A stretch of 64,000 nucleotides of DNA, taken from NCBI RefSeq assembly GCF_009914755.1, contig NC_060927.1, one strand, 5' to 3'. Under the pieces are notes generated by a model. The model was not told where the DNA came from. It made no database searches and worked only from the letters and a program-made list of their open reading frames with translations. The position numbers and the translations under genes are program-made. Below, piece after piece: positions 11,265 through 60,713 of the stretch. The DNA comes from the human T2T-CHM13v2.0 reference genome, Homo sapiens. Each line of letters opens with the position of its first letter. Within the stretch, counting starts at the first letter, position 1.

Positions 11265-11582
11265 TCCTTGAGATTTTCTATGTAGACAATCATGTCATCA
11301 GCATATAGAGACAGCTGTATTTCTTCCTTTCTAATCTTTATTCCTTTCCTACCATTATTGTACTGGCTAGAAGTTAACAGTACCATGTTGAATAAGGGTG
11401 ATGAGAATAAGCATCCTTGTCTTGTTCTCAATCTTAGGGAGAAAATATTCAGTCTTTCTCCATTAAGTATAATGACGGCTGTAGGTTTTTTTGTGGATGC
11501 TCTTTATCAAATTAAGAAGGTTCCTTCTATTCCTATTTTTCTGAGAATTTTTCTCATGATACATGTCGAAATTTGTCAAATC

Positions 11583-11749
11583 AAAGTATGTTCTTCAGTT
11601 TCCAAGTTTTGGAGATTTCCCCATGACCTTTCCTTTATTGATTTCTAGTTTCATTTCATTGTGGTCATAGACTTCAATTCTTTTAATTGCTGGTGTTTGT
11701 TTTATAGCCCAGGGTATACTACATCTTGGTATATGTTCTGTGGGCACTT
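11583..11749 (+). repeat. Dispersed direct copy of 12494-12674
   Basis: Shared blocks agtttccaagttttggagatttccc and gtatactacatcttggtatatgttctgt. Confidence 0.9.
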
Positions 11750-14700
11750 TTGTCAGATTCCTTTTCTGCATCAATTGATATGATCATGTAATTTTTCTTC
11801 TTTAGCCTATTAATATTTCAGATTACAATGACTGATTTTTGAATATTGAACCAGCCTTGTATCTTGGGAATAAACCCCAACTTGGTAGTCACATATGTTT
11901 TCTGAAACTTTTCCATTACAAATTCAATTCCTTTAAATTTTGGGGCTATTCAACTGATCTATTTCATATTGAGTGAGTTGTGATAGTTTGTGTTTCTTGA
12001 GGAATGGGTCCATTTTATCTAAGTTGTCAAATTCGTGTGTGTAGAGTTGTTTGTAGTATTTACTTATTATTTTGATGTCTGCAAAATCTGTAGTGATATC
12101 CCCTTTCATTCCTGGTATTGGTAATTTGTATCTTCTCAAGTCTTGCTCAAGGTTTGTCAGTTTTATTAATCTTAAAAAAAGCTCTTTTTTTGTTGATTTT
12201 TCTCACATAATTGTTTTTCTGTTTTCGATTTTATTGACTCCTGCTGTTATCTTTATTATTTTCTTCCTTCTGCTTGCTTTGGGTTTATTTCGCTCTTTTT
12301 CTAGGTTCTTTAGGTAGGAACTTAGATTGTTTATTTGAGAAGTTTCTTCTTTATATACATGTAGTGCTCTAAATTCTCTTAGTATTGCTTTAGCTGTATC
12401 TAACAAATTTTGATATGTTGTATTTTTCATTTTCATTCCATTGTCTGCATTTTAAAATTTCTCGAGACTCCCACTTTGACATTAGATTATTTAAAAGTAT
12501 GTTCCTTAGTTTCCAAGTTTTGGAGATTTCCCTATTACCTTTCTTTTACTGATTTCTAGTTTGATTTCATTGTGGTCAAAGAACATACTTTGTATTATTT
12601 TAATTATTTTAATTGTTGGTGTTTGTTTTATGGCCCAAGTATACTACATCTTGGTATATGTTCTGTAGGCACTTGACAAAATGTTTACTCTGCTGGTAAT
12701 GGGTGCATTGTTCTGTAAAAGTCAGTAACATCATACTGATTGATGGCGTTGTTGAGTTTCTTTTGTATCTTTGCTGACTTTCTGTCCATTTGTCCTATTT
12801 GTTATTCAGGGAGGAATGTTGAAATCTCACAATACGATTTTAGATTTGTTGGTTTCTCCTTCAGTTCTGTAAGTTTTTGCTCCTGCATTTTGCAGTTCTG
12901 TTGTTTGGTGCATACACACTTAGGATTGCTGTGTCTTTTTGGTGGATTTACCATTTTATTACTATATAACATTTTTCTGTGTCTCTGTAATTTTCTTTCA
13001 CCTGAAGTCTCTTCTTTCTTTTGATTAATGTTTTCATATCTTTATCCATCCTTGTACTTTAAACTTGCCTTAGATCATTGTATAGATAGCATATAGTTGG
13101 ACCATTTTAAATGAAAATCCTTGCTGTAAATCTTTTTATTGTATATAGACCATTTACATTTAATGTGATTATTTATATCTTAGAGCTTAAGTCTTATTTT
13201 ATGTTTTGTTCTGTTTGTTCCCGCTGTTTTTCACATCTTTTCCCCTGCCATTTATGGGTTACTCTAACTTTTTTTTAGAATTTCATGTTGATTTGATAGC
13301 TATTTTAGCTGTTTCTCTAGGTATTAAATTATATATACATAACTTCTCAGTCTACTGGTATCATTATCCAGTTCTAGTGAAGTGTTGCAAACTTATCTGT
13401 CTTCATGTTTGATTAGACTTTCTCACTTATAATATAGTTGTCTTTAAATAGTTCCTCTTTACACATTTAGAATTACAGAAGACAATGTTATAACTTTTTT
13501 TTGCTTCCATCAAGTATAATTTAGAAAACTCAAAAAAGAGTGAAAGTCTGTTTTATTTTTGCCATATTTTTGCCTATAGTTTTCTACCTTCCTCCCTTCT
13601 ATATATTTCTGTTTAGAAAACATTAGCCATTCTTTTAGTGACAAATTTTCTTTGTTTTCCTAAGAGAATTGTCTTGATGATCCGTTTATCGCTGAATAGA
13701 TATTGGGATTCTCAGTTGACAGTTCTTTTCTTTCAGTGCTTCAAAAATATTGTTCCACTTCCTTCTTGCCTCCCTGGTTTCTGATGAGAGATACGCTGTC
13801 ATTTGAATTGTTTTCCTTTTATAGGTAGGGTGCCACTTCTCTCTTGCTGGCTTCTTGATTTTTTTTTTTTTATGTTTAGTTTTCAGAAGTTTGATCATAA
13901 TGTGCCTTATGGATTTTTTGAGGTTTATGCTGTTTGCAATTTTCCCAGGTTCTCAATTCCAGAAATTTATGTGTTTTGTCAATTTGGGAAATTTTCAGTC
14001 ATTAATTCTTCAGAGACTTTTCAGCCCTGTCTTTTTTCTCCTCACTTTCTAGGACTTTGATGACATGAATGTTATAGTCCCATAGATTCCTGAGGCTCTG
14101 TTTATATTTTTTCAGTCTATTTTTTTTCTGATGTATTCTATTTGCTAATATTTTGTTGAAATTTTTTGCACTCATGTTCTTGACCTTGGTCTGTAGTTTT
14201 CTGGTTTTTTGTTTATTTATTTATTTTTTAGAATTGCCTGTTTGATGTTGGTATCAGGCTAATGCTAGTCTAATTAAATGAATGAGGAAGTGTTCTCTCC
14301 TCTTCCATGTCCTGAAAGAAATTGTGTAGAATTGGTGGCATCTTTTTCAAATTTTTGGTCAAACTGGGCCTGGAGATTTCGTTTGTGGAAGATTTTTAAA
14401 AAACACAGATTCAATTTCTTCAATAGTTTTAGCACTATTCATATTATGTATTTCATCTTGGGTGAGTTTTATTAGTTTCCAGTTTTCAAGGAACTGGTCT
14501 ATTTCTTCTAAGCTGTTGAATGTATATGTATGTGTGGAATTGTGTGTGTGTGTTTGTGTGTGTTTTTCTTTTGTAGCATTCCTTGTTATCCTTTAAATAT
14601 TTGTGGAATCTGTAATGATATTCCCCCCTCTCATTCCTGATATTGCTAATTTGTTCTATTTTTTTCCTTTGTCAGTCTTGCTAGAGAATTATTAAGTTTA

Positions 14701-16594
14701 TCACTTTTTTGAAAGAACCAACTTTTGGTTTTACTGATTTTCTCTACTGCTTTTCTGTTTTCAATTTCATTGATTTCTGCTACTTATTTCTTTCCTTTGC
14801 TGTAAATGTGTTTTGCCTTTTTTTGGTTTATTAAGGTAGAAACTGAGTTAACTGATTTGAGACCTTTTTTCTTTCCTAATGTAAGTATTTTATGCTACAA
14901 ACTGCTACAAATTTTCCTCTAAGGACTACTTTAACTGCATCCCATAAATTTTCTATGTTTTACCTTCCTTTTCTTTCATTTCAAAATATTTTCTGACTTC
15001 TCTTGAGACTTCCTTTTTTACCTATGGATTGCGTAGAAGTGGGTTGTTTAATTTCTGAATGTTTGAAGACTTTTTGTTATCATTTATTGATTTCTAGTTT
15101 AATTTGATCATTGTTCAAGAACAAACTTTATATTTCAGTTCCTTTTATTAAAGTTGTTCAGCTTTGGCTTATGAGTCAGAGTACAGCTTATCTTGGTGAA
15201 GGTTCACTGTGTTGTTGAAAATAATGTGTATCTTGATGTGGCTGGGTGGAATGTTCTACAAAATTCAATTCGAAGTAGTTGGTTGAAGGTGTTGTTGAGT
15301 TCTGCTGTATCCTTAGGAATTTTTTTGTTTCCTAGATCTACCTATTACTGAAAGAAGTTTGTTGAAGACTTCAACTATAATTGTGCATATGCCTATACCT
15401 ATTTCTCCTTTCAGTTCTGTCAGTGTCGGTTTCAAGAATTTTGAAACTATGTTACAAGGTGCATAAACATTTAAGATTATTACGTCTTCTTGATGATTTG
15501 AATATTTTATTAATATTCAATATCCCTCTTTACCTCTGATTGTATATTCTTTTAGAGCAGGCCTGCTGGCAGTAGATTCTTTCAGTTTTCCTTCACTGAG
15601 AATATCTTTATTTCACCTTCATTTCTGTGGAGTTTTTCACTGGATATAGAATTATGCATTAACAGTTCTTTAATTTCAGCACTGAAAGCATGTTGTGCTA
15701 CTTCCTCTGGCTGCCATGGTATTCTGATGAGAAATCTACAGTTACTTAAATCATTATTTTCCTCTAAAAATACATCGTGTTTCTCTTGCTGTTTTCAAGA
15801 AGTTTTTTATAGCTTTTAGTTCAGTAATTTTGTTATGTTTGATGATGTGACTCTTTTGGTTTATCCAGCTTGAGTTTGCCAAGCTTCTTGAATCTGTAGA
15901 TAAGTGTCTTTTGCCAAATTTGAGAAGTTTACAGCCATTGTTTCTTCAACTATTTATTCAGCATTATACTCCTTCTTCTCTTTTTCTGGAACTCTGATGA
16001 CATGAATGTTAGGCCTTTTCTTAGTGTTCTGTATGTCCCTGAGGCTTTGTTCATTAAAAACATATATATTTTTCTCTTTACTATGCATATTAATTTCTAT
16101 TGATCTATTTTTAAGTTATCTAACTCTTTCTTCTGTCATCTCCAATCTGCTATTGATCCCATACAATGAGTTATTAACTTTGGTTATTGTATTTTTCAGT
16201 TCTAAAATTACTATTTGGTTCTGTTTCATACTTTCTATTTAATTACCAAGATATTCTATTTTTTCATTTATTCCAAATGTGTTTGTGATGCTTACTGGAG
16301 CATTTGTATATAGCTACTGTAAAGCCTTTGTCAGATAACTTCAGTATCTATGTCATTGTAGTGTTGATGTCAGTTGACTGCTTTTCGAGGCAATTTGAGA
16401 TTTTTCTCATTCTTTGTGTGCCCAGTAATTTGGATTATGTTCTGAGCATTTTGAGTGTTATAAAACTCTGCGTCTTTTTTAAATTTGATGAAAGTTGTTA
16501 AAATTTTTGCTGAAGCAGGCAATCAAACTGTTAGGTTAAGACCACAAATTCCAACCTCTACCTGTGGGAACTGTTGCAAATGTAGTTTCCATTT

Positions 16595-60065: not shown

Positions 60066-60380
60066 ATTTGTTTTTTGTTTTTCTTTTTTTTCTTTTCTTT
60101 TTTTGAGATAGAGTCTCGCTCTTTTGCCCAGGCTGGAGTGCAGTGGCGCAATCTTGGCTCACTACAGCTTCTGTGATTCAAGTGATTCTCATACCTCAGA
60201 CTCTCAAGTAGCTGGGACTACAGGCACATGCCACCATGCCCATCTAATTTTTGTATTTTTGGTAGAGATGGCATTTCACCATGTTGGCCAGGCTGATCTC
60301 GAACTTCTGGCCTCAAGTGATCCACCCACCTTGGCCTCCCAAAGTGCTGGAATTATAGGCATGAGCCACCGTGCCCAGCC
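60066..60380 (-). mobile_element. AluS
   Basis: Full dimer with small right-arm deletion, inserted at the tail of the adjacent AluJ. Confidence 0.93.
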
Positions 60381-60384
60381 TGCT

Positions 60385-60713
60385 TTTTTTCTCTCTTGTT
60401 TAGTTATTTATTTTTAAAATTATAATTTTTTGAGACCAGGTCTTGCTCTGTTGCCCAGGCTGGAGTGGAGTGGTGCTCCATAACTCACTGCAGCCTCCAT
60501 CTCCTGGGCTCAAGCCATCCTCCTGCCTTAGCATCCTGAGTAGCTGGGACTACAGGCATGCATCCCCACACCGACCTATTTTTACAGTTTTTTTAATAGA
60601 GATGGGGTCTTGCTATGTTACCCAAGCTGGTCTGAAACTCCTGGCCTCAAGTGATCCTCCTGCCTTGGACTCCCAAAGCTCTGCAATTACAGGTGTGAGC
60701 CACCACTCCCAGT
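60385..60713 (-). mobile_element. AluJ
   Basis: J diagnostics; intact 5' end 'gtgagccaccactcccagtc'. Confidence 0.9.

What the first reader, a model, noticed from the sequence alone, without database searches (positions are those of the whole stretch)
11572..60713. Recurrent locally templated insertion scars, mostly nucleated in palindromic TA-rich tracts
Seen: at least four independent sites carry copies of DNA located about 0.6-2 kb away. These are 11583-11749 (from 12494-12674), 19789-19930 (from 19194-19209 and 18590-18714), 57412-57484 (from 56486-56558) and 58066-58749 (inverted, from 60003-60687). None has its own poly-A tail or TPRT-style TSD, and three sit inside TA-rich fold-back arrays. 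Known: cruciform-prone TA repeats are fragile, and polymerase-theta end joining and MMBIR/FoSTeS make templated inserts from nearby DNA. Inference: TA arrays here act as long-lived break sinks that grow by snap-back synthesis and capture neighbouring sequence. The copies differ from their donors by very different amounts, which suggests a germline process recurring over a long period. RepeatMasker-style annotation would hide this.
Basis: partly seen in the sequence, partly recalled or inferred. Interest (0 to 1): 0.82.

Follow-up and report, generated by a model that had tools for sequence, protein, structure and literature searches.

The report
Local DNA copies inserted into TA-rich tracts
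Four short stretches of this human chromosome 3 window are old copies of DNA lying about 1 kb away, three of them pasted into hairpin-prone TA-rich tracts; they are real but belong to an already described class of break-repair scars.

Summary
All four copy pairs exist at the stated coordinates. Three inserts (19789-19933, 57409-57484, 58066-58749) have only one other match in the whole genome, their local donor. The fourth (11582-11749) is L1-derived, but its local donor is clearly its best match. Divergence runs from 1.3% to 9.8%, so the events are of very different ages.

Three acceptors lie in TA-rich, strongly hairpin-forming tracts. One sits exactly at the centre of an AT-rich palindrome.

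Inserts 1 and 4 carry 10-11-bp duplications, without poly-A.

Size, distance, two-donor chimerism, microhomology and lack of poly-A match the "repair-mediated duplications" of Pace et al. 2009 (PMC2671141). That survey could only detect acceptors inside transposable elements.

Polymerase theta alone is unlikely, because its published inserts are 3-30 bp (PMC7165422).

The "TA arrays as break sinks" generalisation is not established. Among 20 other TA arrays I found one comparable insert, which is not significant.

Verdict: real, new members of a known kind, with an untested TA-array twist.

The parts
11582..11749 (+). Insert 1 (acceptor copy). About 167 bp of L1-derived sequence interrupting an L1 fragment.
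   Evidence: It aligns to 12494-12674. Other L1 copies align colinearly with the donor context only. In other L1 copies the two flanks of the insert are contiguous.
11571..11581 (+). Left copy of the target-site duplication of insert 1.
   Evidence: 9 of 11 bases are identical to 11748-11758. In 7 of 7 other L1 copies whose two flank alignments both reach the junction, the alignments overlap by 10-14 bp.
11748..11758 (+). Right copy of the target-site duplication of insert 1. Its first 2 nt are also the last nt of donor homology.
12494..12674 (+). Donor 1, in its native L1 context, 745 bp downstream of the insert.
   Evidence: Colinear alignment of window 11942-13294 with six other L1 loci. 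It is the best genome-wide match of insert 1.
19687..19788 (+). Left arm of the AT-rich palindrome at site 2.
   Evidence: 82.8% identity over 93 columns to the reverse complement of 19936-20020, including non-repetitive outer ends. Gapless arms 19702-19788 / 19925-20011. The fold has energy -62.4 kcal/mol and z = -9.1.
19789..19804 (+). Insert 2a, a 16-nt piece copied from 19194-19209.
   Evidence: 15-nt exact match. Too short for a genome search.
19806..19933 (+). Insert 2b, 128 bp copied from 18590-18717. The last 8 nt are a TA-rich motif shared with the array.
   Evidence: 93.0% identity. Only 2 matches in the genome.
19925..20020 (+). Right arm of the AT-rich palindrome at site 2.
18590..18717 (+). 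Donor 2b, 1,089 bp upstream of its copy.
19194..19209 (+). Donor 2a, about 580 bp upstream of its copy.
57116..57411 (.). TA-rich block A, left of insert 3.
   Evidence: Tract finder and TRF. Fold z = -1.7, not exceptional.
57409..57484 (+). Insert 3, 73-76 bp copied from 56483-56558.
   Evidence: (only 2 matches in the genome).
56483..56558 (+). Donor 3, 926 bp upstream of its copy.
57485..58065 (.). TA-rich block B, between inserts 3 and 4. It ends in a palindrome with 70-nt arms (57927-57996 / 57998-58067) that abuts insert 4.
   Evidence: Fold energy -107 kcal/mol, z = -11.6. Inverted repeat I1.
58066..58749 (+). Insert 4, a 684-bp inverted copy made of a 5'-truncated Alu, a full Alu and about 68 bp of unique DNA.
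   Evidence: 98.5% identity to 60687-60003. The unique tail has only 2 matches in the genome. The 'Alu' label is recalled from the sequence; one search found 61 other matches for the insert within the window, the best outside the donor at about 80%.
58058..58067 (+). Left copy of the 10-bp target-site duplication of insert 4. Its last 2 nt are shared with the donor.
   Evidence: Identical to 58750-58759. Random left/right 10-mers of the array are equal in 495 of 200,000 draws. There are 0 exact 10-bp tandem duplications at 1,279 array positions.
58750..59208 (.). TA-rich block C, right of insert 4. The first 10 nt are the right copy of the target-site duplication.
   Evidence: Fold z = -5.6. 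Palindrome 58757-58804 / 58805-58852.
60003..60687 (-). Donor 4, 1,254 bp downstream of its copy. Its first Alu continues beyond the copied part.
   Evidence: donor Alu 5' end present, copy truncated.
4647..5412 (.). 4647-4796 and 5260-5412 are inverted relative to each other. It is not TA-associated.
   Evidence: 85.7% identity and K2P 0.124. Only 2 matches in the genome.

Best explanation
These are germline 'repair-mediated duplications': scars of imperfect repair of a chromosome break or collapsed replication fork.

The proposed sequence of events is as follows. A free 3' end at the lesion primed on a few bases of microhomology in DNA 0.6-1.9 kb away on the same chromosome. A processive polymerase copied 16-685 nt, once from two donors in series. 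The new end then returned to the lesion, in two cases 10-11 bp behind where it left, which gives a target-site duplication.

This is synthesis-dependent strand annealing or microhomology-mediated template switching, not retrotransposition. Three of the five events in the window happened inside TA-rich tracts that fold into long hairpins. One of these is at the exact centre of an AT-rich palindrome and one is at the base of a 70-nt-arm palindrome. The most likely reason is that such tracts stall forks or are cut as cruciforms and so supply the lesions.

Shown: the copies, their uniqueness, orientation, distances, ages, target-site duplications, lack of poly-A, and hairpin potential.

Inferred: that the structures caused the breaks, and which polymerase and pathway acted.
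For: - Local donors are the only match or the clearly best match in the genome.
- Donors lie in native context while the copies are truncated or interrupt other sequence.
- No insert has a poly-A or poly-T end.
- Target-site duplications of 10-11 bp flank inserts 1 and 4.
- Junction microhomology by inspection: 2 nt at the left of insert 4; 2 nt at the right of insert 1; 7 of 8 nt at the right of insert 2; 4 of 5 nt at the left of insert 2.
- Insert 2 is a two-donor chimera.
- The features match the published class (PMC2671141). It has 824 proximal duplications of mean 162 bp and maximum 619 bp. The donor-acceptor distance peaks near 1.2 kb. Chimeras of two donors within 3.5 kb occur. Microhomology is 2-9 nt. 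A target-site duplication of 4-21 nt occurs in 6 of 39. A poly-A occurs in 0 of 39.
- Hairpin potential is well beyond composition: z = -9.1, -11.6 and -5.6, with 0 of 100 shuffles as stable.
- TA-repeat cruciforms are cut by ERCC1-ERCC4 and repaired with small templated duplications in cancer cells (PMC13645644, passages).
- Native TA-rich tandem repeats are fragile without WRN (PMC13738482, passages).
Against: - No pre-insertion (empty) allele could be examined, so microhomology, deletion and target-site duplication calls rest on one haplotype.
- In a repetitive array, the 10-bp repeat at insert 4 has about a 0.25-0.7% chance expectation, not zero.
- Block A, left of insert 3, is not exceptionally structured (z = -1.7).
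- In the big array, direct and inverted self-similarity are about equal at 72-78%. Almost any position is therefore near some palindrome tip or base.
- Two of the five local duplications in the window (insert 1 and 4647/5260) are not in TA tracts.
- In 20 other arrays only 1 of 21 islands has a local donor, and 2 of 3 local duplications there are outside TA tracts.
- Pace et al. report an essentially random genomic distribution.
Confidence: 0.8

Rival explanations
1. Polymerase-theta end joining alone, by snap-back or in-trans synthesis from resected ends, made the inserts.
For: - Breaks at TA repeats depend on Pol theta MMEJ, and small templated duplications appear there (PMC13645644).
- Pol theta makes more templated inserts in AT-rich flanks (PMC7165422).
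- Junction microhomologies here are short, 0-2 nt at several junctions.
- The 16-nt piece of insert 2 is within Pol theta's length range.
Against: - Published Pol theta inserts are 3-30 bp. Primary synthesis tracts are rarely over 10 bp, and the template is DNA flanking the break.
- Here the tracts are 73, 128, 167 and 685 nt, copied from 580-1,940 bp away.
Confidence: 0.1
2. At site 2 the palindrome is a product rather than a cause. One serial template-switch event added the 16-nt piece, the 128-nt piece and then an inverted (snap-back) copy of the adjacent TA-rich left arm. On this reading no palindrome existed before the event.
For: - The best gapped arm alignment stops at 19777 / 19936. 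This leaves the inner 11 nt of the left arm unpaired, as expected if the new strand folded back on a TA-rich motif.
- Donor-2b homology ends in a 7-of-8-nt TA-rich motif that could prime on the left arm.
- By my count on the alignment, the non-repetitive outer part of the arms has about 1 mismatch in about 42 aligned bases. The arms are therefore no more diverged than insert from donor (5-7%).
- Template switching generates inverted repeats (PMC7954356).
Against: - Gapless pairing of the arms also runs right up to the insert (19788 / 19925), as expected for a centre break in an existing palindrome.
- Arm-to-arm gene conversion could keep the arms similar.
- A comparable AT-rich palindrome with unique outer ends and no captured insert exists elsewhere (L021).
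Confidence: 0.3
3. The TA association is coincidence. Proximal repair duplications fall more or less randomly, and this window merely happens to have three in TA tracts.
For: - Pace et al. found an essentially random distribution.
- In the unbiased sample, 1 of 3 local duplications has a TA-array acceptor where TA tracts are 10.1% of bases (20,293 of 200,000). By my arithmetic P is about 0.27.
- The window was selected because of this pattern.
Against: - In the window, 3 of 5 acceptors lie in tracts that make up 3.0% of the bases (1,917 of 64,000). My binomial arithmetic gives about 3e-4, post hoc.
- One array was hit twice at different times.
- One further case was found among only about 20 kb of TA tract elsewhere (L015).
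- TA tracts are independently known to be fragile.
Confidence: 0.3
4. The inserts arose by L1-mediated retrotransposition (TPRT) of local transcripts.
For: Inserts 1 and 4 have 10-11-bp target-site duplications, a size typical of TPRT.
Against: - No poly-A or poly-T lies at either end of any insert.
- Insert 4 begins inside an Alu and ends in unique DNA.
- In Pace et al., 0 of 39 proximal duplications had poly-A tails, and 6 of 39 still had target-site duplications.
- I saw no T-run/A-run cleavage motif at the insert 1 target. The motif is recalled, not tested.
Confidence: 0.03
5. The copies are assembly artefacts.
For: None was found. TA-rich arrays are hard to assemble in general.
Against: The copies differ from their donors by 1.3-9.8%, with substitutions spread along them. 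A mis-join or collapsed duplication would be identical.
Confidence: 0.01

Closest known systems
Repair-mediated duplications, RDs (Pace, Sen, Batzer and Feschotte 2009, PLoS Genet, PMC2671141). I read the abstract, sections 6, 7, 11 and 14, passages, Table S1 part 1 of 15, and term searches of the supplements.
   Same: - Inserts of at least 50 bp with one other genomic copy within 5 kb.
- Mean 162 bp, with the donor-acceptor distance peaking near 1.2 kb.
- Chimeras of two nearby donors.
- Microhomology, filler and occasional target-site duplications of 4-21 nt, and never a poly-A.
- Events spread through primate evolution, with divergences of 0-16%.
   Different: - Their pipeline only sees acceptors that interrupt annotated transposable elements, so acceptors in TA arrays (3 of 4 here) were invisible.
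- Their text has 0 occurrences of 'AT-rich', 'microsatellite' or 'palindrom'.
- Insert 4 (684 bp) exceeds their proximal maximum of 619 bp.
- No number beginning 6665-6688 sits on a chr3 row of the supplements (the phrase search also found nothing but may not cross table cells). So none of this window's inserts appears catalogued, if the hg18 position lies in that range, which I could not verify.
'Doublets', short paired local duplications (Thomas et al. 2004). I saw this only as cited in section 14 of PMC2671141.
   Same: An abundant class of short duplications lying close together, proposed to come from imperfect break repair.
   Different: They are described as short (under 100 bp) and near-identical. 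I did not read the paper itself.
Short-range template switching in great apes (Walker, Loytynoja and Goldman 2021, PMC7954356; passages).
   Same: A replication-based switch to a nearby template. The events create inverted repeats and are enriched in AT-rich and poly(dA:dT) DNA.
   Different: The median templated length is 12 nt and the maximum 128 nt, over very short range. Here the lengths are 73-685 nt from 0.6-1.9 kb away, and mostly in direct orientation.
Polymerase-theta templated insertions, TINS (Carvajal-Garcia et al. 2020, PMC7165422; passages).
   Same: Locally templated, direct or inverted, favoured in AT-rich and microhomology-poor DNA, with repeated rounds of synthesis.
   Different: They are 3-30 bp, templated by DNA flanking the break. 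The sizes and distances here are 10-100 times larger.
TA-repeat and PATRR fragility. Sources: PMC13645644 (Nature 2026, passages); PMC13738482 (preprint 2026, passages); PATRR papers PMC4940405 and PMC1851657 (search listing only).
   Same: AT-rich palindromic or TA-rich tracts that extrude hairpins or cruciforms and break. PATRR breakpoints lie at the palindrome centre (recalled), like insert 2.
   Different: Those are somatic cancer events or constitutional translocations. Here the outcome is a small fixed insertion of neighbouring DNA. The site 2 arms are only about 100 nt long and 83% matched.

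Membership tests
Repair-mediated duplication (Pace et al. 2009) | An insert of at least 50 bp interrupts otherwise contiguous sequence. | tested here: met
   Insert 1: the flanks are contiguous in other L1 copies. 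Inserts 2-4: TA-rich tract lies on both sides. Pace et al. required a transposable element as the interrupted sequence, which holds only for insert 1.
Repair-mediated duplication (Pace et al. 2009) | The inserted sequence is found at only one other place in the genome. | tested here: met
   2 of 2 matches for inserts 2, 3 and the unique tail of insert 4. Insert 1 is L1-derived with many weak matches, but its local donor is far the best (195 against at most 106 bits). Their filter would probably have removed it as a nested repeat.
Repair-mediated duplication (Pace et al. 2009) | The donor is on the same chromosome within 5 kb and is not tandem (more than 50 bp away). | tested here: met
   Distances are 745, about 580 and 1,089, 926 and 1,254 bp.
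Repair-mediated duplication (Pace et al. 2009) | No poly-A/T tail of 5 bp or more at an insert end. | tested here: met
   Junction sequences.
Repair-mediated duplication (Pace et al. 2009) | Breakpoint signature: microhomology 2-9 nt, filler, deletion, or target-site duplication 4-21 nt. | tested here: met
   Target-site duplications of 10-11 bp at inserts 1 and 4. Microhomology of 2 nt to 7 of 8 nt at four junctions, and one unassigned nt between the two pieces of insert 2. All are read from one haplotype only.
Repair-mediated duplication (Pace et al. 2009) | An empty orthologous site in an outgroup species. | not testable with these tools
   No primate genomes or other human haplotypes are held.
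Polymerase-theta templated insertion (TINS) | Insert of 3-30 bp. | tested here: not met
   The inserts are 73-76, 128, 167 and 684 bp. Only the 16-nt piece of insert 2 falls in range.
Polymerase-theta templated insertion (TINS) | The template lies in DNA immediately flanking the break. | tested here: not met
   Donors lie 580-1,254 bp from the acceptor.
TPRT retrotransposition (L1-mediated) | Poly-A at the 3' end of the insert. | tested here: not met
TPRT retrotransposition (L1-mediated) | Target-site duplication of roughly 7-20 bp. | tested here: met
   Present at inserts 1 and 4 (10-11 bp). None is recognisable at inserts 2 and 3.
Palindromic AT-rich repeat (PATRR) | A near-perfect AT-rich palindrome of a few hundred bp. 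| tested here: inconclusive
   Site 2: arms of about 91-102 nt at 83% with a 136-145-nt spacer. Big array: many sub-palindromes, the best with 70-nt arms at 81%, but no single large palindrome.
Palindromic AT-rich repeat (PATRR) | Breakage at the centre of the palindrome. | tested here: met
   Holds for site 2 only, where the insert occupies the exact centre. Insert 4 lies at the base of a palindrome, not its centre.
FoSTeS / MMBIR serial template switching | Two or more template switches joined by microhomology, using nearby segments in either orientation. | tested here: met
   Insert 2 is a chain of two donors. Insert 4 is inverted. Return 10-11 bp upstream explains the target-site duplications (inference).
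FoSTeS / MMBIR serial template switching | A replicative origin (stalled or collapsed fork) rather than a two-ended break. | not testable with these tools
   The sequence scars do not distinguish the two.

The most novel reading that the evidence does not exclude
Hairpin-forming TA-rich and AT-rich palindromic tracts are preferred and repeatedly used acceptors of proximal repair-mediated duplications in the primate germline. This subclass was invisible to the transposon-based catalogue. DNA captured at a palindrome's centre or base acts as a spacer that dampens cruciform extrusion, which lets such arrays persist for tens of millions of years.
Probability: 0.3. Interest if true: 0.6.

Novelty: new member of a known kind. 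Interest (0 to 1): 0.35.

Why it matters
These inserts give four or five clean, datable examples of a germline repair process that copies neighbouring DNA, Alu elements included, into new places.

They also raise a testable possibility. TA-rich structure-prone tracts are known as somatic fragile sites in WRN- or FANCM-deficient cancers. They may also leave a long evolutionary record of breakage in normal germlines. Simple-repeat and Alu masking, and transposon-based catalogues, would both miss that record.

If TA arrays really are enriched acceptors, the inserts could serve as a genome-wide historical map of germline fragility at non-B DNA. As it stands, the class and its mechanisms are already described, and enrichment is unproven.

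Tried and rejected
- **A single large palindrome centred on insert 4.** Rejected. The best inverted flank alignment scores 214 bits against 187 for the best direct one, both at about 73% identity.
- **Further short templated pieces in the arrays.** A scan for exact 13-mers with at least 4 G/C that recur within 6 kb found nothing beyond the known inserts. The AT-rich tract 36786-37026 gave no hit.
- **A wider genome sample.** I wanted 47 TA-array loci but obtained only 20.
- **The L021 island hit** (37 bp, inverted). It proved to be the outer end of a large AT-rich palindrome, not a templated insert.
- **The L029 island 4455-4794.** It has 19 local matches at about 82%, so it is an ordinary interspersed repeat, Alu-like by recall.
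- **The L032 31-bp island.** It is a tandem unit.
- **Pace et al. Table S1.** A phrase search found nothing but may not cross table cells. Numeric searches for coordinates beginning 6665-6688 found no chr3 row.
- **Prior reports of local-donor inserts in TA arrays.** Seven literature searches found none. The library lacks most subscription-journal papers.

Full report
**Observation.** All four claimed copy pairs are present at the stated coordinates.
- Pair 1: 11584-11749 matches 12494-12674 in direct orientation. Identity is 83% counting a 15-bp gap and 90.9% over 165 aligned bases.
- Pair 2: 19806-19933 matches 18590-18717 in direct orientation, 93.0% over 128 bp. It is preceded by a 16-nt piece (19789-19804) identical to 19194-19209.
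- Pair 3: 57409/57412-57484 matches 56483/56486-56558 in direct orientation, 93-94.5%.
- Pair 4: 58066-58749 matches 60687-60003 in inverted orientation, 98.5% over 685 bp.
- In a self-comparison of the window, only 3 of 515 non-self alignments reached 92% identity over 50 bp or more. Two of these are pairs 2 and 4; the third is a 57-bp minisatellite.

The window's whole assembly can be searched.
- Insert 2, insert 3 and the non-Alu tail of insert 4 each have exactly two matches of two candidates: themselves and the local donor.
- Insert 1 is L1-derived, with 40 of 202 candidates scored. Its local donor scores 195 bits (83%). The best full-length match elsewhere scores 106 bits (73%). Some partial hits of about 80 nt reach 80-84%.
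- So the best matches are the local donors, not distant paralogues.
- Copy and donor differ by 1.3-9.8%, which also excludes an assembly duplication artefact.

**Which member is the copy.**
- Donor 1 lies colinearly within an L1 fragment, as in six other L1 loci. The insert is a second copy of that same L1 segment.
- Other L1 copies show that the two flanks of insert 1 are contiguous.
- Donor 4 contains a complete first Alu, whereas the copy starts inside it.
- Inserts 2-4 are bounded on both sides by TA-rich tract, whereas their donors sit in ordinary sequence.
- The labels 'Alu' and 'L1' are recalled from the look of the sequence. The support for them is copy number only: one search found 61 other matches for insert 4 within the window, and the query, which spans insert 1 and its L1 flanks, drew 3,128 genome candidates.

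**Anatomy of the acceptor sites.**
- *TA tracts.* My tract finder lists nine TA-rich tracts totalling 1,917 bp, 3.0% of the window.
- *Site 2.* This is an AT-rich palindrome. The left arm 19687-19788 and right arm 19925-20020 match at 82.8% over 93 columns, including non-repetitive outer ends. The 145-bp chimeric insert lies exactly at the centre. As single-stranded DNA, 19680-20025 folds at -62.4 kcal/mol against -29.1 for shuffles, z = -9.1.
- *The large array.* The array 57116-59208 is a degenerate TA-rich tandem array carrying inserts 3 and 4.
  - The blocks either side of insert 4 fold far better than shuffles, with z = -11.6 and -5.6.
  - Insert 4 starts at the 3' base of a palindrome with 70-nt arms (57927-57996 / 57998-58067). 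It ends 8 nt before another with 48-nt arms.
  - The block left of insert 3 is unremarkable, z = -1.7.
  - The array is not one big palindrome. Inverted and direct flank similarity are about equal, so closeness to some hairpin tip or base is nearly unavoidable there and is weak evidence.

**Junctions.** No insert has a poly-A or poly-T end.
- *Insert 1.* 11571-11581 and 11748-11758 agree at 9 of 11 positions. In 7 of 7 other L1 copies whose two flank alignments both reach the junction, the alignments overlap by 10-14 bp, and by 11 bp in four of them. Fourteen loci had hits to both flanks in all.
- *Insert 4.* An exact 10-mer flanks the insert if the 2 nt shared by array and donor are assigned to the target. 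Random left/right 10-mers of this array coincide in 495 of 200,000 draws. None of 1,279 array positions is an exact 10-bp tandem duplication.
- *Microhomology,* read:

| Junction | Microhomology |
|---|---|
| Insert 4, left | 2 nt |
| Insert 1, right | 2 nt |
| Insert 2, left | 4 of 5 nt |
| Insert 2, right | 7 of 8 nt (a TA-rich motif at the end of donor 2b that is also the array's unit) |
| Insert 3, right | none |
| Insert 4, right | none |

- One nucleotide between the two pieces of insert 2 is unassigned.

**Ages.** K2P distances, and rough ages at 1.1e-9 and 0.5e-9 substitutions per site per year. The rates are my assumption.

| Pair | K2P distance | Age (million years) |
|---|---|---|
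| Pair 4 | 0.013 | 6-13 |
| Pair 3 | 0.057 | 26-57 |
| Pair 2 | 0.054-0.074 | 24-74 |
| Pair 1 | 0.098 | 45-98 |

So the events are spread over a long time, and the large array was hit at least twice.

**What it is.** The features match 'repair-mediated duplications' (Pace et al. 2009, PMC2671141).
- The paper reports 824 proximal duplications, with the donor less than 5 kb from the acceptor. Mean length is 162 bp, median 147 bp and maximum 619 bp. The donor-acceptor distance peaks near 1.2 kb.
- It reports 20 chimeras of two donors, five of them with both donors within 3.5 kb.
- Among 39 inspected proximal cases, 31 had microhomology (2-9 nt), 6 had target-site duplications (4-21 nt) and 0 had poly-A tails.
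- Events ran from human-specific to shared by all primates, with divergences of 0-16%.
- The four inserts here, and a fifth pair I found (4647-4796 / 5260-5412, inverted, 86%, only two copies in the genome), fit this class.
- The published pipeline only detects acceptors that interrupt annotated transposable elements. Its main text contains no occurrence of 'AT-rich', 'microsatellite' or 'palindrom'.
- In the supplements, no number beginning 6665-6688 falls on a chr3 row. I could not verify the hg18 position of this window.

**Mechanism.**
- Tract lengths of 73-685 nt and donor distances of 0.6-1.9 kb are far outside published polymerase-theta templated insertions. Those are 3-30 bp, with primary tracts rarely over 10 bp, templated by break-flanking DNA (PMC7165422).
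- A processive, microhomology-primed copying step fits better. This could be synthesis-dependent strand annealing, as Pace et al. proposed, or FoSTeS/MMBIR-type template switching.
- The two-donor chain at insert 2 is easily explained this way, as is the inverted insert 4. The 10-11-bp duplications at inserts 1 and 4 would come from the strand returning slightly upstream of where it left. These steps are inference.
- It is plausible that the TA tracts supplied the lesions. TA repeats extrude cruciforms that ERCC1-ERCC4 cuts, with MMEJ repair and small templated duplications (PMC13645644). Native TA-rich tandem repeats are fragile without WRN (PMC13738482). Short template switches in apes are enriched in AT-rich DNA (PMC7954356). 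All of this is somatic or short-range evidence, not proof for these events.
- At site 2 I cannot tell whether an existing palindrome broke at its centre or whether one serial switch event also created the right arm.

**Is the TA association general?**
- A 24-nt motif from the array has 304 forward and 283 reverse matches genome-wide at up to 2 mismatches. The reversed-pattern control has 210 and 188.
- I fetched 10 kb around 20 of the 47 distinct loci listed. The remaining 27 could not be fetched.
- These 20 loci hold 21 non-TA islands enclosed by TA tracts. One has a local donor: L015, chr1, a 99-bp Alu 3' fragment with the donor's idiosyncratic end, 98% identical, 1.25 kb away.
- The other island hits were an ordinary interspersed repeat, a tandem unit, and the outer end of a large AT-rich palindrome.
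- Across the 200 kb there are three non-TA local duplications at 90% or more over 50 bp or more. One has a TA-array acceptor, and TA tracts are 10.1% of the bases. By my arithmetic P is about 0.27.
- Within the window, 3 of 5 acceptors fall in 3.0% of the sequence, about 3e-4. But the window was chosen for this pattern.
- The 'break sink' generalisation is therefore open, not shown.

**Novelty and verdict.** The class and the candidate mechanisms are in print. Seven literature searches found no report of local-donor inserts in TA arrays, though the library lacks most subscription-journal papers. I rate the finding as new members of a known kind, of moderate interest. The untested idea is that structure-prone TA tracts are preferred, recurrent acceptors.

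Noticed in passing
window 4647-4796 and 5260-5412: An inverted pair of unique sequence, 85.7% identical and 464 bp apart, with only these two copies in the genome. It encloses what looks like a MIR element (recalled). It is probably an older repair-mediated inverted duplication and is not next to a TA tract.
   Followed up: partly
window 8645-8816: A 57-bp unit repeated three times in tandem at about 98% identity: a small minisatellite.
   Followed up: partly
window 36786-37026: A 241-bp AT-rich tract flagged by the tract finder. It is not a regular TA array, and it has no captured insert or local-donor 13-mer.
   Followed up: yes
L015 5033-5131 (G000:C1:165161640-165171639): A 99-bp fragment of an Alu 3' half inside a TA array. 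It is 98% identical to an Alu 1.25 kb upstream and shares that Alu's unusual end. It looks like a young local templated insert of the same kind.
   Followed up: partly
L021 4706-5140 (G000:C11:81683670-81693669): A large AT-rich palindrome whose outer ends are about 37 nt of unique sequence in inverted orientation. It is PATRR-like and has no captured central insert.
   Followed up: partly
L029 2721-2802 / 3845-3927 and L033 2883-2977 / 6867-6960: Two more short local duplications of non-repeat-looking sequence (94% over 83 bp at 1.0 kb; 90.5% over 95 bp at 3.9 kb). The acceptors are not inside TA tracts. The L029 copy lies about 107 bp from one. Their uniqueness in the genome was not checked.
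   Followed up: no
window 55880-55995: Two adjacent 59-bp units at 86% identity, a small tandem duplication about 500 bp upstream of donor 3.
   Followed up: no
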